Origin: a bacterium
GTDB lineage: Bacteria; Bacillota; Clostridia; UBA1381
Direction of reading: 5' to 3'
NCBI GenBank assembly: GCA_030536655.1
Contig: JAUNPN010000001.1
Span: 20,559-84,558 of the forward strand
DNA length: 64,000 nucleotides
Positions 1 to 18,827 of this stretch are shown here, piece by piece (positions within the stretch are counted from its first letter, which is position 1; each line of letters begins with the position of its first letter). The translations under genes and the position numbers were made by a program. A model generated the notes under the pieces. The model was given only the letters and a program-made list of their open reading frames with translations. It was not told the DNA's origin and did not search any database.

Positions 1-1121
1 GGATTTTCCTTGCTCATCTCCTCGCGTAGTGCCTTAAGAGCCGCATAGTTATCCTTGCTGCCGTCTTTGTTAAGCTCCTTGCCAGAGTGATCCTCACCCG
101 ACCATACTGTTACTTCGCTGAGTGAAACTGTATCGCTTAAAATGCCGCCCCAGATATTCGCGCCGATACGTCCGTTTCCGAGCGGAAGTGATTCAGCCCA
201 TTTTGCAGCCGGCTGACGGTACCACATTGTCATCGCCTTATCAGGCGCAAGTGCCTCACCCATAAATTCCAACTTTGTCCACGGTGCGGCGGTTATTGCG
301 CCAAGCACAATACCTCCGTACCAGTTTCCTCCCTTATTTTCAATTTTCATCTTTCCAAGCTTAAAGCCCGATGCCTTCTGCGCGCTTCCCGGAAAACCCG
401 ATGTACTCATCGGAATCCACTCTCCGTGCGAGCCGGCTGTTATTATTTTGCCGTTCATTCTGAGCTGATATGTATTGTTTTCCGTATTAAAATATATCTC
501 AATATCCTTAGAAAGCTTAAATACATTGTCACGACCTCTTGCCAGCTCATAACGTATGTTTTCGTTTTCCTCATCATTTAAGGCAATAAGATTTAAGGTT
601 ATATCATCCTTACCGTTGTCTTTGGTATACGCTTCAAGTCCAAGGACCCCGTTTCCGTCCTGATCCTCAACCACAAGCGTGTTCGTGCTTCCGTTCCAGA
701 AACCGCCGTAGTCAGCGTCCATTACCATTTTAAACGCCAGTACGGAATTTCCCTCCGCTGTTGCGGCAAACTCATCATAGCCCTTCTGTACAGCTGATTC
801 TGCCAGATCAAGCGTGAAATTATTGTTGCCTCCCCATTCTACATTTGCAAAGCGCATTGCATTGGAGCCCGTACCGAAGCCGTTTCCTATATCGATCGCA
901 TACTGACCGGGGCTCTCAAACGAAAAGCCGTACTGTCCGTTAAGAATACGGTCTTTAATGTCGCTCGCCTCGAAATCTTCCGAGTAAACAACCGCACCGA
1001 CTGACGGTTCGAAGCTTGCATTTCCCGAATCCGTTTCTGCAGCGGAAACATAAACTGCACCCGGCACCGCGCTCATCAAAATTGCCGATGAACACAACGC
1101 AGCTACAATTCTCTTTAGCAT
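1..1121 (-). CDS. Secreted GH95-like glycoside hydrolase, N-terminal 373 codons only (continues past window start)
   Basis: Hand translation of the minus strand from ATG at 1121 (GGAGG 8 nt upstream). It gives a signal peptide (MLKRIVAALCSSAILMSAVPGAVYVSAAE), a ~230-aa beta-sandwich module, then MWYRQPAAKWAESLPLGNGRIGANIWGG...VTVWSGE, the GH95 N-terminal signature. It is not in the ORF track because no stop lies in the window. Confidence 0.8.
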   Translation of the reverse strand, partial: MLKRIVAALCSSAILMSAVPGAVYVSAAETDSGNASFEPSVGAVVYSEDFEASDIKDRILNGQYGFSFESPGQYAIDIGNGFGTGSNAMRFANVEWGGNNNFTLDLAESAVQKGYDEFAATAEGNSVLAFKMVMDADYGGFWNGSTNTLVVEDQDGNGVLGLEAYTKDNGKDDITLNLIALNDEENENIRYELARGRDNVFKLSKDIEIYFNTENNTYQLRMNGKIITAGSHGEWIPMSTSGFPGSAQKASGFKLGKMKIENKGGNWYGGIVLGAITAAPWTKLEFMGEALAPDKAMTMWYRQPAAKWAESLPLGNGRIGANIWGGILSDTVSLSEVTVWSGEDHSGKELNKDGSKDNYAALKALREEMSKEN

Positions 1122-1253
1122 AATAACTGCCTCCTTTTTTAATTATATTTCATTATCAATTATACGTCCTCCTCCGCTAAAAGTATAGATAGAAAAACTT
1201 ATTTGAACAATGAATAATTTAATCCCAGCACCGAAAACGGCATATCTAAGCGC

Positions 1254-1283
1254 AAAAACCGCCCGCTCATCGAGCGGACGGTC
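1254..1283 (-). terminator. Rho-independent terminator of the split hydrolase gene
   Basis: Minus-strand hairpin CCGTCCGCTC-GAT-GAGCGGGCGG (one G.U pair) followed by TTTTT. It sits ~50 nt downstream of the stop at 1332. Confidence 0.7.
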
Positions 1284-1331
1284 TTTGTATTGCAATTTAA
1301 AAGAAAGAGAGAACTGATTCACAAGCTGCTT

Positions 1332-1519
1332 TTAAAGAGCTGATTCATAAGGTGTTTCAAGAACGGGTTTCATACTGTCCCTCCAGATAAATACTTTAAC
1401 CGACAAGTTTTCCTTATTCTCCGGCATGGTAAAGCTGTCCTGTACGGTAAACAATGACTCCTCATCAAATTCAGGCTCATTAAATGTCTTGACGGACTCA
1501 AGTGCTCCGCCATTGTACA
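1332..1519 (-). pseudogene. 3' remnant (61 codons) of the ICE-disrupted giant glycoside hydrolase gene; partner is 47987-54014
   Basis: YNGGALESVKTFNEPEF...KVFIWRDSMKPVLETPYESAL matches the end of the C-terminal module of the 1874-aa and 2301-aa enzymes. The 23 codons upstream in ORF 1332-1586 are ICE-end sequence. There is no credible own start. Confidence 0.85.
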
Positions 1520-1543
1520 TTACGAATGTTCTTACAGAACCTG
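1494..1543. other. attL (host arm 1494-1517, crossover CA/TG 1518-1519, element arm 1520-1543)
   Basis: The element arm ttacgaatgttcttacagaacctg is an inverted copy (19/24) of the element arm at 47961-47984. Both lie at equal distance from a shared dinucleotide. Confidence 0.8.
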
Positions 1544-1571
1544 AACGGTTTTGTAAGAACATTCGTTTTTT
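1523..1571 (+). terminator. Perfect 14-bp hairpin plus T6 at the ICE left end; overlaps the attL element arm
   Basis: cgaatgttcttaca - 15 nt loop - tgtaagaacattcg followed by tttttt on the + strand. It lies directly between the recombinase stop (1574) and the junction. Confidence 0.5.
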
Positions 1572-1573
1572 AT

Positions 1574-3277
1574 TTATCCCGCACACGCCGCATAGTGAAT
1601 GTCTACACCCTGCCTTGTGTGTACTGACACATTATTTTCAGGTAATTTGTCAATATTCGGAATTTCAATACTTCCTATACAGTTATAATGAATTTTTAAG
1701 CGTTGTATTCGTTTACCGTCTATTTCCTCTGCCTGATATACCTCTATTTTCTCTATAAGCTCATTAAGCATTTTGGGCGTCAGCTTTCTTGCTCTTGTAT
1801 ATTTCCTAACAGATGTCATAAACATATCGGTTGAAACAGATTTGTTTGTATCTTTGTCGAGTTCGTCCTGTAACTCTTTTATACGGATATTGAGTTCTTT
1901 TTGTTCTGCGTCATATTTAACAGATAATTTTGAAAATCGTTCATCAGATATTTTCCCTGAAACATTATCCTCATAAATCTTTTCAAAAAGCACATCAAGC
2001 TCTTTATCGCGGGAAGTCAAAGAATTTAATTCTTTCTGCTTCATACGTCGTTCCTGTTCCGCCGTCTGTATGGAATGTCCCATAACTATTTGAGCAAATT
2101 CGGTTTCATATTGTGTCGCAAACTTTGTCAGACGTCTAATCTCGCCAAGTACAACCCGTTCTAAGAAGTCAACGCGGATATAATGCGTTGACGAACAAAT
2201 TTTCCTGTCGCCTTTGTTATATCCCGAACAGTTGAAATATTGTATGTCGTGATTTTTTTGATTGAAGTGATACCATAGATTGCTACCGCAATCAGCGCAT
2301 ACAAGCAACCCAGAAAACATATTCTTTTCGCCGTCTGCCTTTTTACGTTTTCTCGTCTTGCCGCGTTTACTCTGTATCTTTTCCCAAACAGCCCGCTCAA
2401 TAATAGGCTCGTGAACATCTTTAAAAACTGCTTGATTTTCTTTATCGTTAGCAAATCTTTTTTTGTTCTTATATGACTTTGAATAGGTTTTGAAATTGAT
2501 AACATCACCGCAATACTCTTGTAAATCAAGAATATATATAACCGTTGAACTATTCCATAAATACGGGTATTCCGGATTTTTCTTTCCCGGTCTGTTAATA
2601 CCCTTGCTCGCCCAATAGTTTATCGGTGTCATTATTTTATCCTTTTCCAATGTTTCAGCAATTTGCTCTGTGCCTATACCGTTCATAGTCATATTGAATA
2701 TACGGCGTACAACCGCTGCTGCTTCTTCGTCAATAATCCAAAACTTAGGATTATCAGGATTTCTCATATAGCCATACGGCGGAGCTCCCAACGGCTCACC
2801 CGAATTTCCTTTTATCTTATAACTGATACGGCGCTTTTTTGAAATATCACGCGCATACCATTCATTAAAAAGATTTTTTATCGGCGCAAGCTCATTTTCG
2901 CCCTCTTGCGTGTCTATATTATCTGAAACAGCAACAAGTCGTATATCGTGGTCTGGAAAAAATTCTTCCGTCAATTTGCCAACCTCAATATAATTACGTC
3001 CTAATCTTGAAAGGTCTTTTACAAATACGGCTGAAATTTTATTGTTTTCTATTGCTTCAATCATAGCTTTATATCCGGGACGTTCCATTGTAACGCCCGA
3101 AATACCGTCGTCGCAGAATATCAATAAATTTGTATAGCCTTTTTCCTTTGCGATTTTAGTTAGCAGCTTTTTTTGATTGACAATGCTGTAACTGTCGCCC
3201 TCTAAGTTATCATCACGGCTTAAACGAACATATAAAGCCGCTGTTATTTCTTTTTGTTTGTTATTTGACCGTTTCAT
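1574..3277 (-). CDS. Large serine recombinase (ICE integrase/excisionase)
   Basis: 567 aa. N-terminal resolvase catalytic domain (AALYVRLSRDD...VNQKKLL...DDGISG), then a recombinase domain and a Cys-rich zinc-ribbon region (CADCGSNLWY...CSGY). Its position at the element terminus is typical. Confidence 0.92.
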   Translation of the reverse strand: MKRSNNKQKEITAALYVRLSRDDNLEGDSYSIVNQKKLLTKIAKEKGYTNLLIFCDDGISGVTMERPGYKAMIEAIENNKISAVFVKDLSRLGRNYIEVGKLTEEFFPDHDIRLVAVSDNIDTQEGENELAPIKNLFNEWYARDISKKRRISYKIKGNSGEPLGAPPYGYMRNPDNPKFWIIDEEAAAVVRRIFNMTMNGIGTEQIAETLEKDKIMTPINYWASKGINRPGKKNPEYPYLWNSSTVIYILDLQEYCGDVINFKTYSKSYKNKKRFANDKENQAVFKDVHEPIIERAVWEKIQSKRGKTRKRKKADGEKNMFSGLLVCADCGSNLWYHFNQKNHDIQYFNCSGYNKGDRKICSSTHYIRVDFLERVVLGEIRRLTKFATQYETEFAQIVMGHSIQTAEQERRMKQKELNSLTSRDKELDVLFEKIYEDNVSGKISDERFSKLSVKYDAEQKELNIRIKELQDELDKDTNKSVSTDMFMTSVRKYTRARKLTPKMLNELIEKIEVYQAEEIDGKRIQRLKIHYNCIGSIEIPNIDKLPENNVSVHTRQGVDIHYAACAG

Positions 3278-3364
3278 AAGTCCTCCTTTCAGACAGTCAA
3301 ATAAACAGTATTACATTTATATTATACCGCGCTTTTAACCGTCTGTCAGCCTGTTTTAAAAATT

Positions 3365-3541
3365 TTATTCGCTTGATGTCATAAGCCGTAATAAAACAGA
3401 GCCTAATGTTTCGGAAGATTTCTCTTTAAATATCGGTTGTACAACAAATGAGGTTCCATTGACTTGATATGTAATTTCAGCGTCAAGTGATTTATCATTA
3501 CAATTATTTTTGTGTTTTGGATTTTGAGTAGTGTAATTCAT
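3365..3541 (-). CDS. TnpW-like small transposon protein (58 aa, below ORF-track cutoff)
   Basis: Hand translation: MNYTTQNPKHKNNCNDKSLDAEITYQVNGTSFVVQPIFKEKSSETLGSVLLRLMTSSE. GGAGG lies 10 nt upstream of the ATG. The pattern (T-Y-x-V...F...SETL...L-x-RL) matches the TnpW family found beside serine recombinases in clostridial transposons. Confidence 0.6.
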   Translation of the reverse strand: MNYTTQNPKHKNNCNDKSLDAEITYQVNGTSFVVQPIFKEKSSETLGSVLLRLMTSSE

Positions 3542-4033
3542 AAAAAATTAACCTCCATAAAAATTTATGTTAAATCCACCACCTAATAAACCCACCTACC
3601 GAGAGTAATAACTCAATCAAAAATCATCTGACTGTCGGCGGCTGCCGACATCACGACAAGTTAAATCCAGCTCATTCCTATGACCTGCCGCCCAATGCGG
3701 TGAAACGTTCAAGGCGGGGGTATTACAATATATCGGTATTTATATCAGCATATACAAGCCGTTATACGCCTATCAGAAATGTTTGTCGCTCGGATATACA
3801 GGCTGTTTTAATCTTGCAGCGTACTTTTATTGTACGGTAGAAGCTATATATCGTCTTGGCGCATTACTGAAAAATACGGATTTAAAGTAAAGTATCAGAT
3901 GATTTATATTCAGTTGTCAAAGAACAAAGGGGATTTTAGCCCATATAAGCGCATTAAGGGAATAATGCGTTTATATCGGATAAAACCCGTATAAGGGGCG
4001 CGGAAAGGACTGCACGCCCCAACGGTCAATCAA

Positions 4034-4273
4034 TTAGTAGCGAATTACAAAATTATTCACAATTCCCAAAACTAACTTTGCTTCAAGTCTTGATATAACA
4101 TCTTCATCAACATAATAATGTTTTTTGCCCCACTCGTCCTCATATACCCTTGTAGCCAAAGTCTTTATGTAGCTATGAAAATGTGATAGAATAAACTGTA
4201 AAGCGTATGATTTACCCTTGACAGCGTCCTCAATAATAGACAATGGAATGTCCTCAATTTTCTTCTTGCTCAT
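4034..4273 (-). CDS. Tn916 Orf8-like helix-turn-helix protein (HTH_16 type)
   Basis: 79 aa. IPLSIIEDAVKGKSYALQFILSHFHSYIKTLATR...VDEDVISRLEAKLVLGIV matches the conjugative-transposon HTH family that pairs with the Orf7-like sigma factor. Its start overlaps the end of the upstream gene. Confidence 0.75.
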   Translation of the reverse strand: MSKKKIEDIPLSIIEDAVKGKSYALQFILSHFHSYIKTLATRVYEDEWGKKHYYVDEDVISRLEAKLVLGIVNNFVIRY

Positions 4274-4694
4274 AGTGAAAATCCTCCTTTTGCAGCAGAT
4301 TACATAATAGTTTTAATGCCTGCTTACGCCTTTTAAAAACTGTTTGTTGAATTAGATTTAATCGTCTGCCGATTTCTATATCGCTCATTCCAATAAAGTA
4401 CGATAGAATAATAACATCTTGTTTATTCTTTGGTAGCTGACGAATAGCTTTCGCTAATCGGTTATCCGTAATTATAATGGTCTTACCATTTATATAAAAT
4501 GCGTTTTCGCCCTTAAAGTAATTATCATATATACCTATATCGCCTATATCATCAAGCGGAAAAATAGTAATGTCTTTTTTATATTTCTGTCCTCTGTTTT
4601 GCTCTCGGTAAACATCACATATTTCGTTTTTTAGTAAACGAGTGCAAAATTTACAGAATTGATTTAAAATACGTTTATCATTTTCAGCGTTCAT
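4254..4694 (-). CDS. Sigma-70 family RNA polymerase sigma factor (Tn916 Orf7-like)
   Basis: 146 aa. Region-4 HTH: LPKNKQDVIILSYFIGMSDIEIGRRLNLIQQTVFKRRKQALKLL. AGGAGG RBS. Confidence 0.8.
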   Translation of the reverse strand: MNAENDKRILNQFCKFCTRLLKNEICDVYREQNRGQKYKKDITIFPLDDIGDIGIYDNYFKGENAFYINGKTIIITDNRLAKAIRQLPKNKQDVIILSYFIGMSDIEIGRRLNLIQQTVFKRRKQALKLLCNLLQKEDFHYEQEEN

Positions 4695-4730
4695 AAGACA
4701 ACCTCCTTTTGTGATTGAAAGTTGTTGTCC

Positions 4731-4781
4731 TTATTTACCCCTCTATAAATGTTTAACGGAAAAAATTTTTGAAAAACAACC
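4731..4781 (-). promoter_or_regulatory. Conserved ~50-nt upstream element, copy A (upstream of sigma operon)
   Basis: GGTTGTTTTTCAAAAATTTTTTCCGTTAAACATTTATAGAGGGGTAAATAA (minus orientation) is near-identical to 16299-16349 on the + strand. It ends ~40 nt before the sigma start codon. Confidence 0.55.
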
Positions 4782-5242
4782 ATTTTTTGGTAAATGTTAA
4801 AATTTTTTTTATTTTGTTTCATATCTGATAACCTCCAATTTTGAATTTGCGTTTTTCAAAATCGGGATTATGGATAGCGAATAGGGGGCTTGTCCCATTC
4901 GTGTTCTATAAAAAAACATATATGTGTATGATAAGAGTAAATAACAGAAATTTTGCAGACGAGATAAAAAAATTTTTGCCTATTCTTAATATATCCCGTA
5001 GAAACACCAAAAAGCGTAATACTATGTGTCAAAAAACCACACAATATTACGCTTTCTCTGTTAGGTACTGTTAAACTGTCATTTTTCGCATTGATAGGTG
5101 CAAAAGTGGAATATGGTTTATATATTTTTTTGATAAATAAAGTTTTCTATCAGACCTGTAAATAGGTTTATTGTTTTTTATTCCACTCATATCTCCTGTA
5201 CATTAGTAAATTATTTGTGAGTATTTACCATTATCAAACTAA

Positions 5243-6469
5243 TCAATTATATAAATGACTCGGCAGACCGTCTACCATAATAGGCGACAATTCGGCTTGT
5301 ATCAGCGGACGCGCGTATGACAAAAATTCAGGCGACACATATGTACCATTATCTGTTATCCATTCCAAAGGCACTTTTTTCTCAATGTTTGCAATTTTGT
5401 TAATATCAAACGGTTGCGTGGTACACTGATACGGATTGTTTGTAACGCGGTTAAATATAATCATTTTGCCTGTTTCACCTCTGAACGACGCTTCAACCGC
5501 GTGTCCGCCTGCAACAAAGGCTTCTGTTATATCTACTCTTGAAACCATATGCGAGCCGCAGCGTTGGAGAATATTCAAATCTATTGCGCGCGATTTGCAG
5601 CCAAATTCTTGTGTTATTGTATTTGACAGGAATTGTGCCGTGCCGCCTAATGCGACGTGTCCGAAAGAGTCTTTAAATTGTGATTGACTTGATATAAGTT
5701 CGCAGACATATCTACCGTCTTTTAACTTTATACCCTCAGAAACCGCAACAACTATTGACTTTTTATTTTTTCTTAAATTTTCTATGCTTGAAAGGAAACT
5801 GTCAACATCAAATACTTTTTCAGGCAGATATATCAAATCAGGACCGATACAATCCTCGCCCTTGCTAAGTGCAGCCGAAGCTGTAAGCCAGCCTGCGTTT
5901 CTTCCCATAATCTCTACAATATGTATATTTTGATTTCCATACACATTTGCGTCCTTGATTATTTCTTTCATAACCGTTGCGATAAATTTTGCTGCGCTTC
6001 CGTAACCGGGAGTATGGTCTGTTTCGGCAAGGTCATTATCAATAGTTTTTGGTACACCCATAAATCTTATGCTGCTGTTTATCTTTTCTCCGTAATGAGA
6101 TAGTTTTTTAATGGTATCCATTGAGTCATTTCCGCCGATGTAGAAAAAGTGTTCAATTTCAAGGTCATTAAGCATTTTAAAGATTTTTATGTATATTTCT
6201 TCATTTTCCTCTATTTCAGGTAGTTTGTATCGGCAAGAGCCGAGATATGCCGATGGAGTTCTTTTAAGTAATTCAATATGCAAGTCTGTCTGAATATGCT
6301 CCGACAAATCTACATATCGTCCTTCAAGAAATCCCGCAATTCCATTCTGCATACCGAATACTTTATTTGCGCCCCTGTCGCGTGCGGTTTTAAATACTCC
6401 TGCAAGACTTGAATTGATAACGGCGGTTGGTCCGCCTGACTGACCTACAATAACATTTCCGTGTTTCAT
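5243..6469 (-). CDS. 6-phosphofructokinase, probably pyrophosphate-dependent type
   Basis: 408 aa. GQSGGPTAVINSSLAGV, IGGNDSMDT and VPKTIDNDL motifs. The Asp and Lys at the positions of E. coli PfkA Gly104 and Gly124 are the PPi-PFK signature. Confidence 0.85.
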   Translation of the reverse strand: MKHGNVIVGQSGGPTAVINSSLAGVFKTARDRGANKVFGMQNGIAGFLEGRYVDLSEHIQTDLHIELLKRTPSAYLGSCRYKLPEIEENEEIYIKIFKMLNDLEIEHFFYIGGNDSMDTIKKLSHYGEKINSSIRFMGVPKTIDNDLAETDHTPGYGSAAKFIATVMKEIIKDANVYGNQNIHIVEIMGRNAGWLTASAALSKGEDCIGPDLIYLPEKVFDVDSFLSSIENLRKNKKSIVVAVSEGIKLKDGRYVCELISSQSQFKDSFGHVALGGTAQFLSNTITQEFGCKSRAIDLNILQRCGSHMVSRVDITEAFVAGGHAVEASFRGETGKMIIFNRVTNNPYQCTTQPFDINKIANIEKKVPLEWITDNGTYVSPEFLSYARPLIQAELSPIMVDGLPSHLYN

Positions 6470-6511
6470 TTTTTTGTTTCCTTTCTTACAATAGATGTTA
6501 TTACTTTAATT

Positions 6512-8875
6512 TTAAAAATATTTATTCAATAAAATCAATTTATCACCTTTTATAAAATCAATTTCAGCCGTTCTACCGTTTTGTGAGATAATATTTTTGC
6601 TGTTACAAATCATATTATTCGCGCAAAATGGAGGCAGTTCGATTATTATATTAAATGTTTTGCTTGCTGTTAATTCTGCTTTAAACTCATTTTTAGGTAT
6701 ATTCCATTCCATATCAATAGTGCCGCCCTCAAATCTCCAGCCTGTAATCTTTCCGTGCTGCATATCATCACTTAGAGCCGGAAGAAGTTTTATCAATTTC
6801 TTTGAGGAATACAAAATCATTTCCTGCACTGCGTTTACATATCCCATACTTGCGTCAAGCTGAATAGGAGCGGCAGAGTCCATTTCCAAAGACAAATCCA
6901 TTCGCCGCCAATCATTATGCAGCGTGAAAAAATTAGTTTGCATACAGCTTCTTACGAGATTATTTAAGCAGTCCATCGCGTCATTACCGCGATTAAATCT
7001 TGCATATATTGACGCCATATGCGCCTGCGACCAACCTGTTTGTGCGCTAATATCTCTCAAATCAACCGCCTTTTCAAATGCTGATACCATATCGTCGTTT
7101 GTTGTTATTTCATCACCCGGAAAAACAGGATATATATGCGACAAATGCCTGTGATAATACCTGTCCTCAAAATCATCGTCCTGCCATTCCTTAACGGCTC
7201 CGTCTTTATTTACGCTATATTCGGGAATGGAATTTACGATATTTTCCCATATTTTAATTTTGTTGCCGTATATATTATGCTCGACGCATAACTCGATTAA
7301 ATTTGTAAACAATTCCTTGATTATCGCCAAATCCATAGTGGAATTAACAGCGCTTGTCATAGGGTGCGCCATATCAACATTGTCTTTTGGAATAAAATTC
7401 AAAGGAGAATTTTCGGGCGAAACACTCGGATATATTTTTATATACCCGCTTTCATCAAACGCAATAAAATCCTCATAAAACTCTGCCGCCGCTTTCATAA
7501 ATGGCAGAACAACACTATGCAGATATTCAGTATCTCCTGTATAGGAATAATATTTATAATAATGCTGCGCCAGCCAACCTGCTGCGCCCGTCCAATTCAT
7601 AATTACAGGCACAAGCTGACACGGTAGCGGCATATTCGGTGTTGTTCCTGCCGGAATAAATATACCTTTACAGCCGTAGAGTTTTTTAGCGCACTCCTTA
7701 AAGATGTCAAGCCTGCTTATATAATACTCTAATAATGCCTTGTTAAGCTCCTCCAGATTGCCGATATTAGCGTGCCAATACATCATCTGTATATTTTCAT
7801 TTGCCATATTATGACTCCATACAGCTTTATAATCTCCGCACCATAATCCGTACATAGAAAACGGAAATCCGTCCTTAGAACTTCCCGATATAAATAAATA
7901 CCGCCCGTACCGCCATAGTTTTTCGATAAGCTCATTCGGAGATTTGCCGCTATACGCATTTAACATAAGTTCCTCATTCGATAAATCATTGTTCTCAAAC
8001 AAGTTAAGCTCCGCACTATGATACAAGGCACTGTGAAGCGGAATATGACGGTTTAGATAATATTCATAGCTGTTATTCTCAAATTTCAACTTGTCTTTAT
8101 CAGGACAGCCATTTACAAATACCTTTATTTTAATAAGAATATCAGACGCGCAATTTACATTGATACGGCTTTCACTGTTTTTAATATCACCGTCAGCACT
8201 TTCGATTTTTACCACCGCGCCGTATGGTTTTTTATTGGTATTAAGCGATTTATAAATGATAATATTACTGTCTATTTCAGTACGGCTATGTTCCTTTACA
8301 TATTGATATGTTTTGTCGGAGCTGTCGGTAGCTGTTGGAACATCTAATGAAAATACAGCGTCCAAGAAAGGCTTATCTGCCTGTATTCTAAGAAGTATCA
8401 TATCGTCTTTTCGTGATACGAATAAATCTTTTTTTACCCACACGTCTTTTTCACGAAATTGTGAGCTTACTTCGCCTGTTTCCATATTGACAGCGCGAAG
8501 ATAATCAGAAAATCCTGTAAAGCCTGTAAAAGACATATTAAGTTCTGCAAGTGGCAGCGGATAACCGCGCTCATTGTTATATCCGCTTTCTGTAAGCGCA
8601 TTTGTTAAAATCCAATTTGCCGTATTGAAATCTCTGTTATCCATTGCTTGACGTGTCTTTGTCAGACTTCCGCTTATATCAGGGAGAGGATTACACTCCG
8701 TACCCGTCCATAAAGCACTGTGATTTATAAGCACACTTTCGCGTTTTGTGCCGCCGTACACATTTGCGCCTATTTTTCCGTTACCGCTCACCAAACCCTC
8801 GCGCCACAAGGCTTTATGCCACGACGAGGGATATTTCATTGTAATTACATTTATGTTTTTATTTATCAGTTTCAT
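6512..8875 (-). CDS. GH95-family glycoside hydrolase, no signal peptide (cytoplasmic)
   Basis: 787 aa. N-terminal WREGLVSGNGKIGANVYGG...INHSALWTG and catalytic-domain GLWCGDYKAVWSHNMANENIQMMYWHANIGNLEE match GH95 signatures. Confidence 0.8.
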   Translation of the reverse strand: MKLINKNINVITMKYPSSWHKALWREGLVSGNGKIGANVYGGTKRESVLINHSALWTGTECNPLPDISGSLTKTRQAMDNRDFNTANWILTNALTESGYNNERGYPLPLAELNMSFTGFTGFSDYLRAVNMETGEVSSQFREKDVWVKKDLFVSRKDDMILLRIQADKPFLDAVFSLDVPTATDSSDKTYQYVKEHSRTEIDSNIIIYKSLNTNKKPYGAVVKIESADGDIKNSESRINVNCASDILIKIKVFVNGCPDKDKLKFENNSYEYYLNRHIPLHSALYHSAELNLFENNDLSNEELMLNAYSGKSPNELIEKLWRYGRYLFISGSSKDGFPFSMYGLWCGDYKAVWSHNMANENIQMMYWHANIGNLEELNKALLEYYISRLDIFKECAKKLYGCKGIFIPAGTTPNMPLPCQLVPVIMNWTGAAGWLAQHYYKYYSYTGDTEYLHSVVLPFMKAAAEFYEDFIAFDESGYIKIYPSVSPENSPLNFIPKDNVDMAHPMTSAVNSTMDLAIIKELFTNLIELCVEHNIYGNKIKIWENIVNSIPEYSVNKDGAVKEWQDDDFEDRYYHRHLSHIYPVFPGDEITTNDDMVSAFEKAVDLRDISAQTGWSQAHMASIYARFNRGNDAMDCLNNLVRSCMQTNFFTLHNDWRRMDLSLEMDSAAPIQLDASMGYVNAVQEMILYSSKKLIKLLPALSDDMQHGKITGWRFEGGTIDMEWNIPKNEFKAELTASKTFNIIIELPPFCANNMICNSKNIISQNGRTAEIDFIKGDKLILLNKYF

Positions 8876-8903
8876 ATTATCCTCCTTGAAGTCTTATACT
8901 ATA

Positions 8904-8935
8904 AATGCCAATCCGAAATATTCCGAATTGGCATT
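8904..8935 (-). terminator. Hairpin between the 1874-aa gene and GH95 (terminator or attenuator)
   Basis: 12-bp stem (aatgccaattcg / cggattggcatt, one mismatch) with an 8-nt loop. Only a weak T tract follows on the minus strand. Confidence 0.4.
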
Positions 8936-8955
8936 TATAAAATATAGGGAGAGAG

Positions 8956-11900
8956 TTAACGCAAAATCTTTGCTTCTGTAAGCGGCTTCATATTCTCTAA
9001 ACTGTTCCATAAGAACGCTTTAATATAATCTCCGCTTTCAATCGCTGAATTTGAATATGTAATGCTATATTCGTTGGCACTATTAGCCGTTACTGTATGC
9101 TTTTCGGTTTTCAATTCCTTTAAAGTTCCGTTTCCATCATACAATGCAATCATCATATTTACGGGTATATCCGTTTCACCGTTATTTTTTATAGCAGAAG
9201 TTGCCGTAACTGTTTCTCCTGCGGTTAATTCTGTTTTGTCAAATTCTATTTCACCAGCCGAGAACGGTTCTTCAAATTCTCCCTTTACAACTGTTATTCC
9301 TAACAGACCTGCTAAGACCTCGCTTGAAAGACATTCAAAGTCAACGCTTTCTATTTGATTAACCTTGCCAAAGTCAAGAGCGAGAATATTTGAATGTGCT
9401 TTGGCGCCAAGCATTTGCACATATCCCGTTTCCGCATACGGTTTTGCTTGCTGATAATTGAGCCAATCGTCAATATTATCAGGGTTTGTAAGCGGAAGTA
9501 TTTCTTTTGTTCCGTCTTTCATATTAACCGTAATTCTCGCGTTCTCAATTCTGCTCTGCATATTATTTGTAGATACGCTTAACATAAAGTAAATCTTTGA
9601 ACCGTCTGTATTAACGGGAATATTCATCTTGTCGGGGAACTGATTATATAGCGATACAAAAGCCGCATTGTTTCCCTCTGCTGATGAAATTTCAAAAGGA
9701 ACGCCTATATCTGTTAAATACTTACCTGATGTAAGATTTAAGCTACTCGGAACACCGTCTGCACCTCTGCCCGGCTCCCACCAAGCGCGTCCGTTTGGAA
9801 GAACCGTTCTTTCCGCGTCAGACGACCAATAAAATTTCTCAAGCCTGTAATGCTCGTTGCCCTCATAAGTGAGGTCATATTCATTTTGGTGCAGCGTTCT
9901 CAAATCCTGATTTACAACGCCATCAAGTGATATTGTCTGATACTGCTCCGCAGTATTTGTTACATTATCCTTTAAATCCCAAGCGGTAAGCTCGCCGTAA
10001 ATTGTTTTGTTTACATCTCCGCTTAAAACTGCTGTAACCCTATTGTTGCCGGGTGTTAAATCGGGTTCGCTTTCAATCGGTACAAGAATTTCATTACTTG
10101 CGCCCTTTGCCGCTATCGTTATATTTTCTTCTGTAACTTTGCCGCTTACAGTTGACAATGTAGCATTGAGTTTAAGCTGTTTTTCAGTGTTATTTGTGAG
10201 CTTCACTTTTATTCCCGCATTTGCGCCTGTAACAATTTCCATATCAGTTAATTCAACTGCATCCTTAACTTCAAGGTCAACAGGCAATACAGCAGTCATA
10301 TCGTTTTTCTCTACCGTAACAAAGAATGTATGGTGTCCTGATTTTTCGCCTAACGCTACTGTTATCGTATCTGTGCCGATACCATTCGTATTTGTAATTA
10401 AGCTCTGCGGGTCTGAAATAGCTGTGATTATACCGTTTGATTTAACAGTGTAATCAGAGTTTTTACCGCCGACAGGTTTCGCTCCAATCTTTGCAAGCTC
10501 ATCATTTGCATATGTTACCTCAATAACTGCACTGCTATTGACAGGAGTTTTTACATTTACAAAATTATCAACCGTATAATTCGTTACCTCCGAGCCGTTT
10601 ACCTTAACGCTTGTAATTTTTGAGCTTCTTGTAGGAATGTGCATTTCATAGCTCAAATTTTCCTTTGATGTTACACTAAATTTATCTGTGTTATTTTCGT
10701 ATTTATAGTCATAGCTTACAGCGTCCATTTTTATAGACGCATATTTCCAATCTGCGGGGAAACCGGGTTTTATATCAGCTTTTCCGTCCGGCACATTTAC
10801 TTTTATTCCGAATATACCCTCTGCCGCTGTTCTCGCATATTGCGATGTACAGTCTGCAAAGTCAATATGACCGTTATTTGATAAATCGGCTTTCACAATA
10901 TGCTGGACAGTTCCCTGACCTGCCGAACTGCCTTTCATAAGAGGAACAAGACAAGCTCTAAACTGTTTCATTCCCATTTCGCGCTGACCGTTTTCAAAAT
11001 ATGCAAGGGCATTGTTCATAACCTCCTCAACATACAAGCCGTCACTTGAATAATATTCGGGAAGTCTGTTTGAAGAATACTTAAAATCTATATTATCCCA
11101 AATTTTATCTAAGTTTGCAACACTCGGAACAGCATAATCGGTAAATCTCATCATTTGATATACCTGTTCATCAGTCGCAATCCCCATATCAACAGCAGTA
11201 TATATTGACGATAAATCGGGCGCGGCGTTAAGTCTGCCGTAACCAAAGCGTTCCTTTACTTCTCCGAATACACCTGTGTCAGCGTCCCAAAGCTGCTCGT
11301 TCATTTCCTTTTTGATTAAATCAGCCTTTGTCTGATATGCTGCTGCGTCATCTGTCTTACCGAGTTTCGACGCAATTTTTGCCATTGTATTATATGCTCT
11401 CCAAGTGTATGCGGTTGCTATTGAGCCTGCGCCGCCGTTGTTCCACTTATTATCGGTATTCCAAGCGTCAAGCCAATTTTCATATAAATTTGTTCCGGGA
11501 ACCTGCATATAATCGTCCATAAATTTAAGGTGTCCGGCGATAAATTCATATCCGCCCTCATTTGCAAAGAACGCGTCATCTCCCGTCCAATCCCAATACT
11601 GCATTATAATATCTACCATTACAAGGCTCATATTATAGCGTCCGTCGTGAGATGGATATGCCCATATTCTTCCTGTATCTTTCTCCTGTCTTGCAATATA
11701 ATTTTGAATATTAGTTTTTATTCTGTCGCTCCAGCCTGCATTTACAAAGCAATATCCGCCGCGCCAGCCGCCCTGTCCGTTATGCCAGCCGATTGCGCCG
11801 TGAGTTATAACAGGATTATCCCATATGTTATCCATTGCCATAATCTGAGCGCGCATAGCTGAATTGATGTACGGGTCGGGAGTATCAATTTTTATAGTTT

Positions 11901-14580
11901 CCGCAACACCTTTGAAATAGCTTATACTATCGTTAAATATTTCTCTTGCGTTTGTCTGATACTCGTTAAAATATTTATTTTCTGACGGACTATCTGTTGT
12001 AATCATCATATACACCGTATTTTCGGTATTACCGTCAGTCGTGCCTACTACCATTGGCTGATTTGCCGCTGTTGAGGTTAATAAAGCGTCCACTCCTGAA
12101 CTGTACATTGACGCGTCCTTTGCGGCATAATTCATTTTTACATTTGATGTGCCGCTTATTGTAGCATATGAGCCTGTGATACTGAATGAATTATCAGTAA
12201 ATGTCGGAACAGTTGAATTTGTATCGGACGGACTAAATTCAAGTGCGGAAGAATTACCGCCTGTCGGCTGCTTGCTGTCTATTTTATTACCGCCTGCCGC
12301 TGCAACTACCAGCTTATCCTTTACACTGTCGGGAAGCTCTGCTTTTACAAGCATAGCGTCGATTTTGTCCGAGCGTGTATATGTCAGCTTTATTTCACCC
12401 TCAAAGGAACTGTCTTTTATAACATATTCTTCGTACCCGTTTACATATCTTGCAGTTATATTGCTCATTTCATCAAGCCATTTTCCGTCCTTTATGCCAA
12501 GAAACATATGAGCAAAACGGAAAAAGCTTGTGCCTGTACCCGCATTTGACAATACCAATTTCGGTCTGTCGCCGAGATAATAGATATATCTGAACGAGGT
12601 TTCGCCATTATCGTTTGTATGCGCCGCATATATAGGGCGCGTATAATTCTTGTTTCCGTTGTCAATCTCAAAACCGCCGTCAACAGGCTTGTATGTAAAC
12701 GGATTTTTTGTAACTACAACCTTTAAGCTGCCTTTTATATCAGCAGTTGAAGCGGTAACAGTTATAGTCTGTTCTGTTGCTGTGCTGTCTGCTGTTACTG
12801 CCGCACTTGCGCTGTCAAAAGTTATACCGTTACTGTCATATGTTTCCATACTCCAAGAAAAGTCAGTATTCTTAATTTCAACGCCCTTTTGGTCGTATGC
12901 TTTTGCGGTATATGTAAAGCTCTTTGTTCCGCTTTTCGGTATTTCTATTGACATATCACCGTCTACGGCGATTTCTGATAATACAGGCTTATATACTCTT
13001 ACTGTCTTGCTTGCGGTTATATCGCCTGATGTTGCCTTAATTATAACGTCGCTGTCGCTGTTTACTGCGGCTGTCAGCACCCCGTTTTCAAAGGTTATAC
13101 CGTCTGTCGTATTTTCAGCGTTCCAGCCGCTTAATTCCTCTGACGGCATTTCCACTCCGTATTGGTCAAATATTTTTACCGTATAGGTTTCGCTTACCTG
13201 CGACGCTGTTTGCAGCATATCCGCTCCGATTATTTCTATTTTAGAAGCAGTCATTTTATATGTTTCTATTTCTTCTGAAATAGCATAAATACCCGGATTA
13301 TCTTCTAAGGCAGCCTTTACCTTAAAAGAGCTTGCCGTTGCTGATGAAGTTGAAGAAATAACGCCTGTGTTTTCGTCTATGATTATTCCGCTATCGTTTA
13401 ATGCTGTTTCATCAGTATTTAAAAGCGACCATTTAAGCGGTATTCCATACGCTTCGCTGCCTGCCTTGTCATAGCACTGAGCATAAAATTCTGTTGTTAC
13501 AGAACCGCTGTTCGGTATCGGCAATCTGCTTGCAGGATTTATAAGACTTACAGACGCCGCTGAGCCGGCCTGCGCTATCGTGATTTTTGCGCTGTCATAC
13601 TCCGAACCGTCATAGCTTAAAAGTCTTACGTTATATTCGCCTGCGTCTGCTTCGGAGCTTACAGTTAAAACGCCTGTCGCAGGATTTAATGTTATGCCTG
13701 TCGGTAAATTCTCCTGTAAACTTTCTGTATCATCTGAATTATAAAGCTCAAACTTTACTAATTCTTTTGACAGCGGTTCATAGCTTGATAAATCAACGCC
13801 GTTAAACGAAGCCGCTGCGACAAGATAGTTTACTGTTTTTGTTGTTCCCTCGGCGGGAATAGAAACCTTGCTTATATCGTCTGTTACTCCGATAGTAACC
13901 TCCGTCGGCGCAGGTTTATATACTTTCATATTTCTGACGTCAACCGCGCCGGAGCGTATATCGCTTTCGCCGTTTACTTTGTTTGTAACATTAAATTGTG
14001 AAAATATAGACTGAGTTAAGTTTCTAATTACTTTTTCAGACTTGGTCGCCTGTACTTTCTCGTCTGTATCTGCCGCCTTAGTGTAAGCAACCATACTTGT
14101 TGTTCCGTTGGCAAGAAATTTTATATTGTACCACTTGTTTGCTTCTGCGCCCTGATACATTGTTTCATAACTGCTCGGATTACCTATTTTTGTCTTAATT
14201 TTTTCACCGTCGAATATTACCGTAGGTCCGAGCTTTGAGCCGCCGTACAACTCTACAACACCCGAATTTCCATCCGCAAATCTCACGTCAAATTCTGCAA
14301 CATATATGCTGCCACCTGCAAGAGTGCTGTCAACCTTTCGTGTAACCTTTTGTTCTGTGTCTACGGCTGTATAGCGCATATATGGAATTTCCTCGTCGGT
14401 TAAGATTTCCATATTTTCTGTCTTGCCCGTCCACTTGTTATTTTCCGATGTAAAATCTTCGTTCAGATACACCTGCAATTCTTCTGCACTTACATTCAAT
14501 GCAGCAGTTGGAATAAACGCACATATCATCTGCAACGATAATACAGCGGATAAAATACGTTTTAATGCTTTTGCTTTCAT
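8956..14580 (-). CDS. 1874-aa secreted multidomain glycoside hydrolase-like protein (LamG-like N-module, Ig-like repeats, (alpha/alpha)6-barrel-like core, C-terminal Ig-like module)
   Basis: Signal peptide MKAKALKRILSAVLSLQMICAFIPTAALNVSAEE. Four or more Big_2-like repeats. The core (GAIGWHNGQGGWRGGYCFVNAGW...YENWLDAWNTDNKWNNGGAGSIATAYTWRAY) looks like a six-hairpin glycosidase, but I cannot assign the exact family. The C-terminal module is shared with two other enzymes in the window. Confidence 0.7.
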   Translation of the reverse strand: MKAKALKRILSAVLSLQMICAFIPTAALNVSAEELQVYLNEDFTSENNKWTGKTENMEILTDEEIPYMRYTAVDTEQKVTRKVDSTLAGGSIYVAEFDVRFADGNSGVVELYGGSKLGPTVIFDGEKIKTKIGNPSSYETMYQGAEANKWYNIKFLANGTTSMVAYTKAADTDEKVQATKSEKVIRNLTQSIFSQFNVTNKVNGESDIRSGAVDVRNMKVYKPAPTEVTIGVTDDISKVSIPAEGTTKTVNYLVAAASFNGVDLSSYEPLSKELVKFELYNSDDTESLQENLPTGITLNPATGVLTVSSEADAGEYNVRLLSYDGSEYDSAKITIAQAGSAASVSLINPASRLPIPNSGSVTTEFYAQCYDKAGSEAYGIPLKWSLLNTDETALNDSGIIIDENTGVISSTSSATASSFKVKAALEDNPGIYAISEEIETYKMTASKIEIIGADMLQTASQVSETYTVKIFDQYGVEMPSEELSGWNAENTTDGITFENGVLTAAVNSDSDVIIKATSGDITASKTVRVYKPVLSEIAVDGDMSIEIPKSGTKSFTYTAKAYDQKGVEIKNTDFSWSMETYDSNGITFDSASAAVTADSTATEQTITVTASTADIKGSLKVVVTKNPFTYKPVDGGFEIDNGNKNYTRPIYAAHTNDNGETSFRYIYYLGDRPKLVLSNAGTGTSFFRFAHMFLGIKDGKWLDEMSNITARYVNGYEEYVIKDSSFEGEIKLTYTRSDKIDAMLVKAELPDSVKDKLVVAAAGGNKIDSKQPTGGNSSALEFSPSDTNSTVPTFTDNSFSITGSYATISGTSNVKMNYAAKDASMYSSGVDALLTSTAANQPMVVGTTDGNTENTVYMMITTDSPSENKYFNEYQTNAREIFNDSISYFKGVAETIKIDTPDPYINSAMRAQIMAMDNIWDNPVITHGAIGWHNGQGGWRGGYCFVNAGWSDRIKTNIQNYIARQEKDTGRIWAYPSHDGRYNMSLVMVDIIMQYWDWTGDDAFFANEGGYEFIAGHLKFMDDYMQVPGTNLYENWLDAWNTDNKWNNGGAGSIATAYTWRAYNTMAKIASKLGKTDDAAAYQTKADLIKKEMNEQLWDADTGVFGEVKERFGYGRLNAAPDLSSIYTAVDMGIATDEQVYQMMRFTDYAVPSVANLDKIWDNIDFKYSSNRLPEYYSSDGLYVEEVMNNALAYFENGQREMGMKQFRACLVPLMKGSSAGQGTVQHIVKADLSNNGHIDFADCTSQYARTAAEGIFGIKVNVPDGKADIKPGFPADWKYASIKMDAVSYDYKYENNTDKFSVTSKENLSYEMHIPTRSSKITSVKVNGSEVTNYTVDNFVNVKTPVNSSAVIEVTYANDELAKIGAKPVGGKNSDYTVKSNGIITAISDPQSLITNTNGIGTDTITVALGEKSGHHTFFVTVEKNDMTAVLPVDLEVKDAVELTDMEIVTGANAGIKVKLTNNTEKQLKLNATLSTVSGKVTEENITIAAKGASNEILVPIESEPDLTPGNNRVTAVLSGDVNKTIYGELTAWDLKDNVTNTAEQYQTISLDGVVNQDLRTLHQNEYDLTYEGNEHYRLEKFYWSSDAERTVLPNGRAWWEPGRGADGVPSSLNLTSGKYLTDIGVPFEISSAEGNNAAFVSLYNQFPDKMNIPVNTDGSKIYFMLSVSTNNMQSRIENARITVNMKDGTKEILPLTNPDNIDDWLNYQQAKPYAETGYVQMLGAKAHSNILALDFGKVNQIESVDFECLSSEVLAGLLGITVVKGEFEEPFSAGEIEFDKTELTAGETVTATSAIKNNGETDIPVNMMIALYDGNGTLKELKTEKHTVTANSANEYSITYSNSAIESGDYIKAFLWNSLENMKPLTEAKILR

Positions 14581-14698
14581 AGGTCTGCCTCCTTAAATTA
14601 TTTCTTAAATTTATTGTTAATTTAATTATACAATATTCATTTTGCTTTGTATATGTCAAAATACTGCATATTTTATGATAAATTCACGCATTTTTATA

Positions 14699-14727
14699 TT
14701 GCGTTGATTTCCGCAATATGATATACT
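14699..14727 (+). promoter_or_regulatory. Sigma-A-type promoter of the AraC gene
   Basis: TTGCGT - 17 nt - TATACT with TGn extended -10. A 7-bp inverted repeat TATTGCG/CGCAATA overlaps the -35 and spacer. It lies 20 nt upstream of the start codon region. Confidence 0.5.
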
Positions 14728-14746
14728 AAAAGCAGGGGGTGAGCGT

Positions 14747-15589: not shown

Positions 15590-15605
15590 AAATTTTTTGA
15601 ATTAT

Positions 15606-15640
15606 TTAAAAACAACCACCCGCACATCATGGGTGGTTGT
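15606..15640. terminator. Hairpin terminator between the convergent AraC and esterase genes
   Basis: acaaccaccc - 9 nt - gggtggttgt. A T5 run follows on the minus strand and an A run precedes on the + strand. Confidence 0.6.
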
Positions 15641-15653
15641 TCCGCTCTATATC

Positions 15654-16212: not shown

Positions 16213-16298
16213 AAAAACACCTCTGTTTTTAATATTAAATATATTTCTAACATAATTTAATTAAAAACTCTATAAAATATTGAATTTTATATTGAAAA

Positions 16299-16349
16299 GG
16301 TTGTTATTTCAAATTTTTTTTCGTTTAACATATATAGAGGGTAAAATAG
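16299..16349 (+). promoter_or_regulatory. Conserved ~50-nt upstream element, copy B (upstream of oriT and the mob operon)
   Basis: GGTTGTTATTTCAAATTTTTTTTTCGTTTAACATATATAGAGGGTAAAATAG. See copy A at 4731-4781. Confidence 0.55.
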
Positions 16350-16470
16350 TGGTTTTTTGCTACCAGCAAGCACAGCGAGTGTAGCCACACTCACGATTTT
16401 TTGTTTGCTATATGCGTAGCAAAAGCAACAAAAAATATTTTGGGAACATATCCCAAACCCAGATAAAAAA
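16350..16470 (+). other. Candidate oriT
   Basis: Non-coding leader directly upstream of mobC and the relaxase. It has hairpins GAGTGT-AGCC-ACACTC (16377-16392) and TTTGCTA-TATGCG-TAGCAAA (16404-16423), and direct TTTGCTA repeats. Confidence 0.45.
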
Positions 16471-16483
16471 CGGAGGTAATAAA

Positions 16484-18807: not shown

Positions 18808-18827
18808 AGATTATCACTATTACAAGA

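What the first reader, a model, noticed from the sequence alone, without database searches (positions are those of the whole stretch)
1332..1586. Orphan 61-codon tail is the missing C-terminus of the hydrolase gene that breaks off 46 kb away
From codon 24 on, ORF 1332-1586 (YNGGALESVKTF...KVFIWRDSMKPVLETPYESAL) matches the last ~60 aa of the C-terminal module of two other giant enzymes in the window. Those are ...ALYDGNGTLKELKTE...KAFLWNSLENMKPLTEAKILR (8956 gene) and ...GLYKENRL...KIFMWDKDQKPIARAYTKSY (54715 gene). ORF 47919-54032 contains the first half of the same module (...TLTVSAGEMRYNDTVIYAAL). It then runs into 21 unrelated codons (VRVLLQNLSKNRIKSRVLSSL, stop). Joining GCC GCA CTG to TAC AAT GGC restores one in-frame gene of ~2,077 codons. 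As integrated, the host should still produce a truncated enzyme with an ICE-encoded tail.
Basis: seen in the sequence. Interest (0 to 1): 0.65.

Follow-up and report, generated by a model that had tools for sequence, protein, structure and literature searches.

The report
Conjugative element splits a glycosidase gene

Summary
Confirmed. ORF 47919-54032 (-) reads 2016 host codons, then 21 element-encoded codons and a stop. ORF 1332-1586 (-) from codon 24 carries the missing 61 codons.

- **Join:** Joining 47985 to 1517 gives one 2077-codon frame.
- **Empty site:** A Logan metagenome contig (L002) holds the uninterrupted orthologue (2080 aa, 89% aa identity). It reads ...GCGCTG|TACAATGGCGG... 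with no gap at the join and has the same downstream GH95 gene.
- **Insert:** 1518-47984 (46,467 bp) is an ICE. It has a Tn1549-type transfer module, a DUF4368 large serine recombinase (1574-3277), a 2-bp TG crossover and a dyad-symmetric attP. An 11-kb glycan-utilisation cargo lies inside it.
- **Effect on the protein:** The cut falls between the invariant Leu-Tyr pair, inside strand 3 of a six-strand C-terminal beta-sandwich.

New here: 45 of 60 relatives of the recombinase abut the CCA end of a tRNA gene. Copies of this same ICE end, over 99% identical, lie at three different tRNA ends in rodent gut metagenomes. The glycosidase site is therefore a pseudo-attB. It reads CCGCAC-TG, which resembles a tRNA acceptor end.

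The parts
47985..54032 (-). 5' part of the split gene: 2016 host codons. Signal peptide, CBM35/6-like modules, a clan GH-D-like catalytic region with the Melibiase_C sandwich, three LamG-like modules, and the first 43 residues of the terminal beta-sandwich.
   Evidence: Translation; Pfam; 89.4% aa identity to the intact orthologue P0014.
47919..47984 (-). 21 element-encoded codons (VRVLLQNLSKNRIKSRVLSSL) plus the stop that now ends the truncated ORF. The first 24 nt are the P' arm of attP.
47985..47986 (-). Crossover dinucleotide TG at attL (CA on the + strand).
   Evidence: TG is the only sequence shared by attL, attR and the empty site. ICE homology in other metagenomes ends at 47986.
47961..47984 (-). 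attP P' arm, GTACGGGTGCTGTTACAGAACCTG.
   Evidence: 19 of 24 positions are dyad-symmetric with the P arm about the TG.
1518..47984 (.). Inserted ICE, 46,467 bp. Contains the serine recombinase, TnpW-like gene, sigma-like gene, cargo, MobC/relaxase, anti-restriction genes, TopoIII, NlpC/P60, VirB4-like, VirB6-like and T4CP genes, an SLH surface protein and a DUF6017 protein.
   Evidence: Pfam. Absent from L002 between the same flanks.
1520..1543 (-). attP P arm, CAGGTTCTGTAAGAACATTCGTAA. It overlaps a 14-bp hairpin (1522-1535 paired with 1552-1565) that is followed by a T run on the + strand.
   Evidence: The arm is conserved in relatives.
1518..1519 (-). Crossover dinucleotide TG at attR.
   Evidence: Homology with related ICE ends (L004, L084, L085) and with metagenome contigs stops exactly at 1518.
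1332..1517 (-). Orphan tail: the last 61 codons plus the stop of the split gene. It encodes the end of strand 3 and strands 4-6 of the terminal beta-sandwich.
   Evidence: 82% aa identity to the tail of intact P0014, with no stop or frameshift. Database protein P0017 (62 aa) is M plus this tail.
1250..1285 (-). GC-rich hairpin plus a T run: the likely original terminator of the split gene.
   Evidence: Read directly from the sequence. Conserved in L002 after the intact gene.
1574..3277 (-). Large serine recombinase, 567 aa (Resolvase, Recombinase, Zn_ribbon_recom and DUF4368 domains; YVRLSRDD and SRLGRN motifs).
5243..15589 (.). ICE cargo: PFK, GH95, a 1874-aa secreted glycosidase ending in the same module type, and an AraC regulator.
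   Evidence: Relatives L014 and L049 have only about 2.5 kb at this position. L005 carries an 83%-identical GH95 next to the sigma-like gene.
3..1121 (-). Host gene downstream of the split gene (start of a giant GH95).
   Evidence: Pfam. The same 2535-aa gene follows the intact gene in L002 and follows the recombinase in L003.

Best explanation
A 46.5-kb integrative conjugative element was inserted by its large serine recombinase. The crossover was conservative and 2 bp long (TG), and fell between codons Leu2016 and Tyr2017 of a 2077-codon secreted glycoside hydrolase gene.

The gene now exists as two pieces. One is a 2016-codon body that reads 21 codons into the element's P' arm and stops. 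The other is an unexpressed or orphan 61-codon tail next to the recombinase gene, 46.5 kb away.

**Shown:**
- the two junctions
- the empty site in a relative
- the in-frame join
- the ICE gene set
- the position of the cut inside strand 3 of the terminal six-strand beta-sandwich (on an AlphaFold2 model)
- the fact that this recombinase lineage normally sits at the CCA end of tRNA genes

**Inferred:**
- This event was an off-target integration into a pseudo-attB. Its left arm (...GCCGCAC|TG) mimics a tRNA acceptor end (...CCGCAC|CA). The central dinucleotide, not the half-site, set the polarity.
- Excision would restore the gene precisely.
- The truncated enzyme keeps its catalytic part but has an unfoldable last domain.
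For: **Junctions and frame:**

**Intact orthologue and empty site:**

**attP:** 19 of 24 positions are dyad-symmetric, centred on the TG.

**ICE gene content:**

**Recombinase looks intact:**

**Same insertion in a second assembly:** L001 crosses attL and L003 crosses attR, at 99.9-100% identity.

**Family norm:** in 45 of 60 relatives (46-95% identity) a tRNA gene on the opposite strand abuts the conserved element end, mostly Leu and Pro, also Arg, Met and Ala. In 44 of these 45 the junction reads ...CTCGTAA|TGG. L085 shows the same at tRNA-Leu(tag).

**Same ICE elsewhere:** copies of this ICE end over 99% identical end exactly at 1518 and 47986.
- In X8 the end abuts one tRNA 3' end; in X9, X10, X13 and X16 a second; in X20 a third.
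- In X18 it lies at a non-tRNA site that also reads TGCCGCAC-TG-T.

**Resemblance to a tRNA end:** scored with a tRNA-arm weight matrix, the site ranks 6th of 2289 TG sites in the 17.5 kb of host DNA.

**Module fold:** AF2 model with pLDDT 83.5; the junction lies in strand E37-45.

**No decay of the tail:** 11 nonsynonymous and 15 synonymous codon differences, against 9 and 10 in the 61 codons before the junction.
Against: - The empty site comes from a relative only 87% identical in DNA, not from the same strain.
- No empty site or circular form was seen for this strain.
- The resemblance to a tRNA end is weak. At this rank, hundreds of equally good sites would exist in a whole genome.
- The measure combining the best proximal and best distal half-site scores was chosen after seeing the data.
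- There are no expression or protein data for the truncated enzyme.
- L001/L003 may derive from the same sample as the window.
Confidence: 0.9

Rival explanations
1. The glycosidase module is the element's specific, preferred attB. The recombinase would have evolved to target this conserved Leu-Tyr-coding stretch, which would explain why the cargo enzyme carries the same module.
For: The crossover lies exactly between the two invariant residues of the module. Three giant enzymes in the window carry the module.
Against: - Near-identical copies of the same ICE end sit at three different tRNA ends.
- The 95%-identical relative L004, and L085, sit at tRNA-Leu.
- The paralogous modules lack the CCGCAC and ACTTGA motifs in their DNA.
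- The module is rare: 15 hits among 1.8 billion representatives.
Confidence: 0.04
2. Assembly artefact: a MAG contig that wrongly joins an ICE to a glycosidase gene.
For: The source is a metagenome-assembled genome. ICEs are repeated in gut communities.
Against: - Both junctions are crossed by a separate Logan assembly (L001, L003).
- The two host flanks fit each other to the base and in frame.
- The breakpoints coincide exactly with the element ends defined independently in other samples.
Confidence: 0.02
3. A programmed, reversible gene switch like skin/sigK or SPbeta/spsM. Regulated excision would rebuild the full-length enzyme in a subpopulation.
For: - Conservative serine recombination would restore the gene exactly.
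- The tail shows no decay.
- TnpX/TndX-type enzymes can excise without a separate directionality factor (stated in PMC5704250).
Against: - The site is not conserved as a target. Relatives use tRNA ends.
- The only intact orthologue found has no element.
- Nothing links excision to a host programme.
Confidence: 0.03

Closest known systems
Tn5397 (TndX) and Tn4451/Tn4453 (TnpX, TnpW) of clostridia: the DUF4368 'multi-targeting' clade of large serine recombinases (Durrant et al. 2022, PMC10083194)
   Same: - Same domain order: Resolvase, Recombinase, Zn ribbon, DUF4368.
- A TnpW-like gene lies upstream.
- 2-bp crossover with no target duplication.
- One lineage is found at several different sites.
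   Different: - The crossover is TG, not GA.
- The preferred targets are the CCA ends of tRNA genes rather than AT-rich or GA-centred sites. The Durrant paper does not mention tRNA at all.
- The recombinase is carried by a 46-kb ICE.
Tn1549-family ICEs of Firmicutes, e.g. the Faecalibacterium ICEs named after tRNAarg/tRNAleu sites (PMC12084326)
   Same: - PF03432 relaxase with MobC.
- VirD4-like coupling protein (PF02534 plus PF12696).
- VirB4-like ATPase, TopoIII, NlpC/P60 hydrolase and a CD1107-like protein.
- Adaptive cargo lies between the backbone operons.
   Different: - Tn1549 itself uses a tyrosine integrase (from my own knowledge); this element uses a serine recombinase.
- The PF12846 hit is below Pfam's cut-off.
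- The text of that paper does not say which integrase type serves its tRNA sites.
Genes split by serine-integrase elements: skin/sigK, SPbeta/spsM, A118/comK (from my own knowledge; SPbeta reviewed in PMC8270828, which I did not read)
   Same: A large serine recombinase inserts inside a coding gene. The two gene halves flank the element, and excision would rebuild the gene.
   Different: In those cases the gene is the dedicated attB, and excision is tied to a host programme. Here the gene is an occasional off-target site, and the normal attB is a tRNA end.
Central-dinucleotide control of polarity in Bxb1 and phiC31 integration (from my own knowledge: Ghosh 2003, Smith 2004)
   Same: The window site and the X18 site carry the tRNA-like half-site on the arm opposite to the canonical one, with TG in place of CA. 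That is what a polarity rule based only on the dinucleotide predicts.
   Different: Not tested for this enzyme. The inference rests on two natural sites.
Dehalococcoides ssrA-specific genomic islands with serine recombinases
   Same: A serine recombinase that targets the 3' end of a tRNA-like gene.
   Different: Different phylum, a single target gene (tmRNA), and a longer direct repeat. No sequence comparison was made here.

Membership tests
Large serine recombinase (serine integrase) | N-terminal resolvase catalytic domain with the nucleophilic Ser, followed by the Recombinase domain and a zinc ribbon. | tested here: met
   PF00239, PF07508 and PF13408 all score above their cut-offs. The YVRLSRDD and SRLGRN motifs are present.
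Large serine recombinase (serine integrase) | Conservative recombination at a 2-bp core, with no target-site duplication beyond the core. | tested here: met
   attL, attR and the empty site share only TG.
Large serine recombinase (serine integrase) | An attP of about 50 bp with imperfect dyad symmetry about the core. | tested here: met
   19 of 24 positions are symmetric, centred on the TG.
DUF4368 / TndX-like multi-targeting LSR clade | A DUF4368 C-terminal domain, and one lineage found at several unrelated target sites. | tested here: met
   PF14287 scores E = 3e-24. ICE ends over 99% identical lie at three tRNA genes and two non-tRNA sites.
Integrative conjugative element (T4SS type, Tn1549-like module) | Relaxase, coupling protein, VirB4-like ATPase and an integrase, all within defined att boundaries. 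| tested here: met
   PF03432, PF02534 plus PF12696, PF19044, and VirB6-like PF19478. The boundaries are defined by the empty site.
Integrative conjugative element (T4SS type, Tn1549-like module) | Actual excision and conjugative transfer. | not testable with these tools
   There is only indirect support: near-identical copies lie in other genomic contexts in rodent gut metagenomes.
Tn1549 sensu stricto | A tyrosine integrase (Int-Tn type) with Xis. | tested here: not met
   The only recombinase in the element is a serine recombinase.
Clan GH-D alpha-galactosidase-like glycoside hydrolase (the split gene) | A TIM-barrel catalytic domain followed by the Melibiase_C beta-sandwich. | tested here: inconclusive
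   Only Melibiase_C scores above its cut-off (E = 4e-8). No catalytic-domain model and no PDB sequence match were found.
Developmentally excised intervening elements (skin, SPbeta type) | A dedicated attB inside the gene, and excision coupled to a host programme. | tested here: not met
   The lineage's usual sites are tRNA ends. Regulation could not be tested.

The most novel reading that the evidence does not exclude
This ICE belongs to a large sub-clade of DUF4368 serine recombinases in gut Clostridia. I found no published description of its properties in my three literature searches.

- The attB is essentially a single half-site: the T-arm and acceptor 3' end of many different tRNA genes.
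- The crossover falls on the CA of the encoded CCA.
- The element end supplies a new hairpin and T-run terminator to the tRNA.

The glycosidase insertion and the X18 site would then be natural experiments. They suggest that the acceptor-like hexamer CCGCAC next to a TG is enough for occasional integration, with polarity set only by the dinucleotide.
Probability: 0.5. Interest if true: 0.6.

Novelty: new member of a known kind. Interest (0 to 1): 0.4.

Why it matters
- **Annotation:** the 2037-aa and 84-aa (or 62-aa) ORFs are two pieces of one gene and should be flagged as such. The same two pieces already sit in protein databases as separate entries (P0005 and P0017).
- **Biology:** a gut Clostridia strain gained an 11-kb glycan-utilisation cargo while one of its own giant glycosidases was damaged.
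- **Recombinase research:** the off-target event pins the crossover of a tRNA-end-targeting serine recombinase lineage to a single dinucleotide. At canonical sites attP and the tRNA share longer identity (TGGT or more), which hides the crossover. The event also hints at which few bases are enough for recognition. Both points are useful for anyone considering multi-targeting serine integrases as tools.

Tried and rejected
- **Alternative join register.** Both junctions share GTAC, which would put one more base in attB and give AALVQWRST*. The empty site in L002 rejects this.
- **Exact empty-site pattern** (wobble positions left degenerate) in JGI metagenome contigs: 0 hits.
- **Sequencing runs for the host gene** (X1, X2, X7): only short fragments, no junction information.
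I could not look at the host's tRNA sites or at close relatives' genomes.
- **Family assignment for the C-terminal module:** no Pfam hit even at E = 5 and no PDB sequence hit. Foldseek gave only generic Ig-like sandwiches (best E = 0.02).
- **Idea that the recombinase targets the shared module, or that homologous recombination with the cargo gene's module produced the arrangement:** rejected. The paralogous modules share no DNA motif at the site, and the break is an exact att core.
- **Literature:** three searches and three papers gave no explicit description of a tRNA-CCA-targeting DUF4368 recombinase. This is absence of evidence only.
- **L084** (a short metagenome contig): the flank shares 12 nt of a tRNA end and then diverges. 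Left unexplained.
Full report
**1. Observation**

On the minus strand, ORF 47919-54032 (2037 codons) ends ...TLTVSAGEMRYNDTVIYAAL, followed by VRVLLQNLSKNRIKSRVLSSL and a stop. ORF 1332-1586 (84 codons) starts with 23 unrelated codons and then reads YNGGALESVKTF...ETPYESAL. The last host base of the first piece is 47985 (the G of CTG). The host resumes at 1517 (the T of TAC). Joining the two gives 6234 nt, or 2077 codons, with one terminal stop.

**2. Is the tail really the missing end?**

- A word-indexed search of 5.8 billion proteins, using the last 298 residues of the rebuilt protein as the query region, found only the truncated form at high identity (P0005, 80% coverage).
- The 90% cluster of P0005 has a third member, P0014 (2080 aa). 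P0014 reads straight through the join...NDTVVYAALYNGGALEAVKIF...ETPYESVLH.
- Its contig (L002, Logan assembly of SRR10165006, 27 kb) has no element there. The DNA is ...GTCGTATATGCTGCGCTG|TACAATGGCGGCGCGCTTGAA....
- The joined window flanks give one 3.5-kb blastn HSP on L002 at 86.8% identity. The protein alignment has no gap around the junction.
- The gene after it in L002 is a 2535-aa GH95 giant gene. The same gene begins at window 1121 and follows the recombinase in L003.
- The two junctions also share GTAC, which would allow a join one base longer and a frameshift. The empty site excludes that and fixes the crossover at TG.
- The tail is not decaying. It has 82% aa identity to L002, with 11 nonsynonymous and 15 synonymous codon differences. 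The 61 codons just before the junction have 9 and 10, and the gene as a whole has 212 and 417.

**3. What was inserted**

The insert is 1518-47984, or 46,467 bp.

- At one end lies a 567-aa large serine recombinase (Resolvase, Recombinase, Zn ribbon, DUF4368), preceded by a TnpW-like gene and a sigma-70 region-4 gene.
- At the other end lies a DUF6017 protein.
- Between them are MobC/NikA and a PF03432 relaxase, a VirD4-type coupling protein, a VirB4-like ATPase, a VirB6-like protein, an NlpC/P60 hydrolase, TopoIII, two ArdA genes, an ArdC-N/M78 protein, a C5 methylase, a CD1107-like protein and a 1741-aa SLH surface protein. This is a Tn1549-type transfer module combined with a serine integrase.
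- attP, rebuilt from the two element ends, is CAGGTTCTGTAAGAACATTCGTAA-TG-GTACGGGTGCTGTTACAGAACCTG. It is symmetric at 19 of 24 positions about the TG.
- The block 5243-15589 (PFK, GH95, a 1874-aa secreted glycosidase, AraC) is cargo. Relatives L014 and L049 have only about 2.5 kb between mobC and the sigma operon. L005 (82% recombinase identity) carries an 83%-identical GH95 at the same place.
- A second assembly crosses both junctions (L001, L003; 99.9-100% identity). It may come from the same sample as the window.

**4. What the split does to the protein**

The split gene encodes a signal peptide, CBM35/6-like modules, a divergent clan GH-D-like region (only Melibiase_C scores above its cut-off), three LamG-like modules ending in ...WWQxxYxDDI, and a last module of about 100 aa.

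- The module has no Pfam family.
- A full phmmer scan of 1.8 billion representatives found 15 proteins. P0005 covers query residues 1-43, and P0017 (62 aa, Met plus the orphan tail) covers residues 42-103. Other proteins carry the module at their C-terminus (P0019, P0026, P0028) or in many copies (P0016).
- In a 10-sequence alignment, L43, Y44, F86 and W88 are invariant. The crossover lies between L43 and Y44.
- AlphaFold2 on that alignment gives a confident six-strand sandwich: pLDDT 83.5, with strands at 10-16, 22-28, 37-45, 48-56, 65-71 and 81-89. Its only structural neighbours are generic Ig-like domains.
- On that predicted model, the truncated protein keeps two and a half strands and gains 21 foreign residues. 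I infer that the catalytic part is untouched and the last domain cannot fold. Whether the enzyme is made, secreted or active is not known.

**5. The site is atypical for this element**

*Relatives of the recombinase.* I fetched 80 relatives (46-95% identity) from species-representative genomes. I read the DNA after each stop codon and scanned 60 loci for tRNAs.

- In 45 of the 60, a tRNA gene on the opposite strand begins directly after the conserved element end. Most are Leu and Pro; Arg, Met and Ala also occur. In 44 of these 45 the junction reads ...AAGAACACTCGTAA|TGG, where TGG is the complement of CCA.
- The closest relative (L004, 95%) sits at tRNA-Leu(tag). So does L085, a metagenome contig with an almost identical end.
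- DNA homology between the window ICE and L004, L084 and L085 stops exactly at 1518.

*The same ICE in other samples.* Rodent gut metagenomes hold copies of this ICE end at over 99% identity, but they do not hold the host gene.

- Their contigs end at 1518 and run on into ...GCAGGTTCAAGTCCTGTCATCCGCAC|CA in X8.
- They run on into ...GAAGGTTCAAGTCCTTTCAGGTGCAC|CA in X9, X10, X13 and X16.
- They run on into ...GTGGGTTCGAATCCCTCCGGGCGTAC|CA in X20.
- These are three different tRNA 3' ends.
- On the other side, the ICE match ends at 47986. The flanks there are unrelated to each other. The canonical attB therefore has only one conserved half-site, the tRNA.

The window has no tRNA gene. The glycosidase site is a pseudo-attB.

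**6. Why here? (inference)**

- Read outward from the core, the left arm of the window site is GTGCGGCA.... This equals the acceptor-end complement of tRNA-Leu (GTGCGG).
- The right arm has ACTTGA at the register of the T-loop.
- With a weight matrix built from the tRNA arms, the site ranks 6th of 2289 TG sites in the 17.5 kb of host DNA for the sum of both arms: 38th for the right arm and 114th for the left. The resemblance is real but modest. A whole genome would hold hundreds of equally good sites.
- A rat metagenome (X18) has the same ICE at another non-tRNA site, which also reads TGCCGCAC-TG-T. Its tRNA-like arm is again on the left.
- In both cases the acceptor-like CCGCAC is followed by TG instead of CA. 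The half-site therefore lies on the opposite arm from the canonical one. This fits the established rule for Bxb1 and phiC31 that the central dinucleotide alone sets polarity (from my own knowledge, not tested here).
- The paralogous modules in the cargo gene and in the 54715 gene lack these DNA motifs. The shared module is therefore not the target.

**7. Comparison with what is known, and novelty**

- A serine-integrase element splitting a gene is well known (skin, SPbeta, A118).
- DUF4368 recombinases are known as a multi-targeting, TndX-like clade (PMC10083194).
- tRNA 3' ends are regarded as the territory of tyrosine integrases, while serine integrases are described as disrupting genes (PMC5704250).
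- Tn1549-family ICEs at tRNAarg and tRNAleu sites are catalogued in Faecalibacterium, but the text does not state the integrase type (PMC12084326).
- Earlier notes of this scan had also seen DUF4368 recombinases next to tRNA ends. I treated those notes as leads and tested the point independently here.

The finding itself is an ordinary, well-proven ICE insertion. The tRNA-end targeting and the off-target event that exposes the crossover are the parts worth following up.

**8. Limits**

- No reads of the source strain were available, so excision, occupancy of the host's tRNA sites and expression remain untested.

Noticed in passing
window 1522-1571: The element end next to attR is a perfect 14-bp hairpin followed by T6 when read on the + strand, and half of the hairpin is the attP P arm. 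At canonical sites this places a terminator-like structure directly after the CCA end of the target tRNA. Relatives keep the same layout with different sequences.
   Followed up: partly
window 5243-15589; L005 3-2291: An 11-kb glycan-utilisation cargo (PFK, GH95, a 1874-aa secreted glycosidase, AraC) sits between the divergent backbone operons. A related element in a rabbit gut MAG carries an 83%-identical GH95 at the same spot, but no PFK gene lies between it and the sigma gene.
   Followed up: partly
L018, L020, L025 (just after the recombinase gene): Some relatives are followed by only the first 17-24 nt of a tRNA 3' end, after which the sequence is unrelated. In L025 a complete tRNA-Leu lies about 160 nt further on. 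This could be tandem accretion or an att relic, or it could mean that the P' arms of these elements mimic a tRNA end.
   Followed up: no
L033, L046, L048, L068, L069; run X18: Other members of the recombinase family also have non-tRNA flanks, so off-target or secondary-site insertions recur in this clade.
   Followed up: partly
window about 48880-49000 versus L001 12698-12772: The Pro/Ser/Thr-rich linker repeat (ETASPSPEATDEPK units) differs in copy number between the window and the otherwise 99.9%-identical Logan contig.
   Followed up: no
P0016 (5280 aa) and P0023 (1329 aa): The C-terminal sandwich module, which has no Pfam family, occurs in about 15 matched stretches in each of these two database proteins. 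It is a repeatable building block and not only a C-terminal cap.
   Followed up: no
L005, L007, L028-L030, L034, L038, L055, L077: In several relatives, a second serine recombinase gene starts directly after the first one (tandem recombinase genes), in place of an element end.
   Followed up: no
L084 1581-1708: A short metagenome contig has the same P arm, then TG plus 12 nt identical to the tRNA-Leu end seen in L085, and then unrelated AT-rich sequence. It could be an attP, a relic or another pseudo-site.
   Followed up: no
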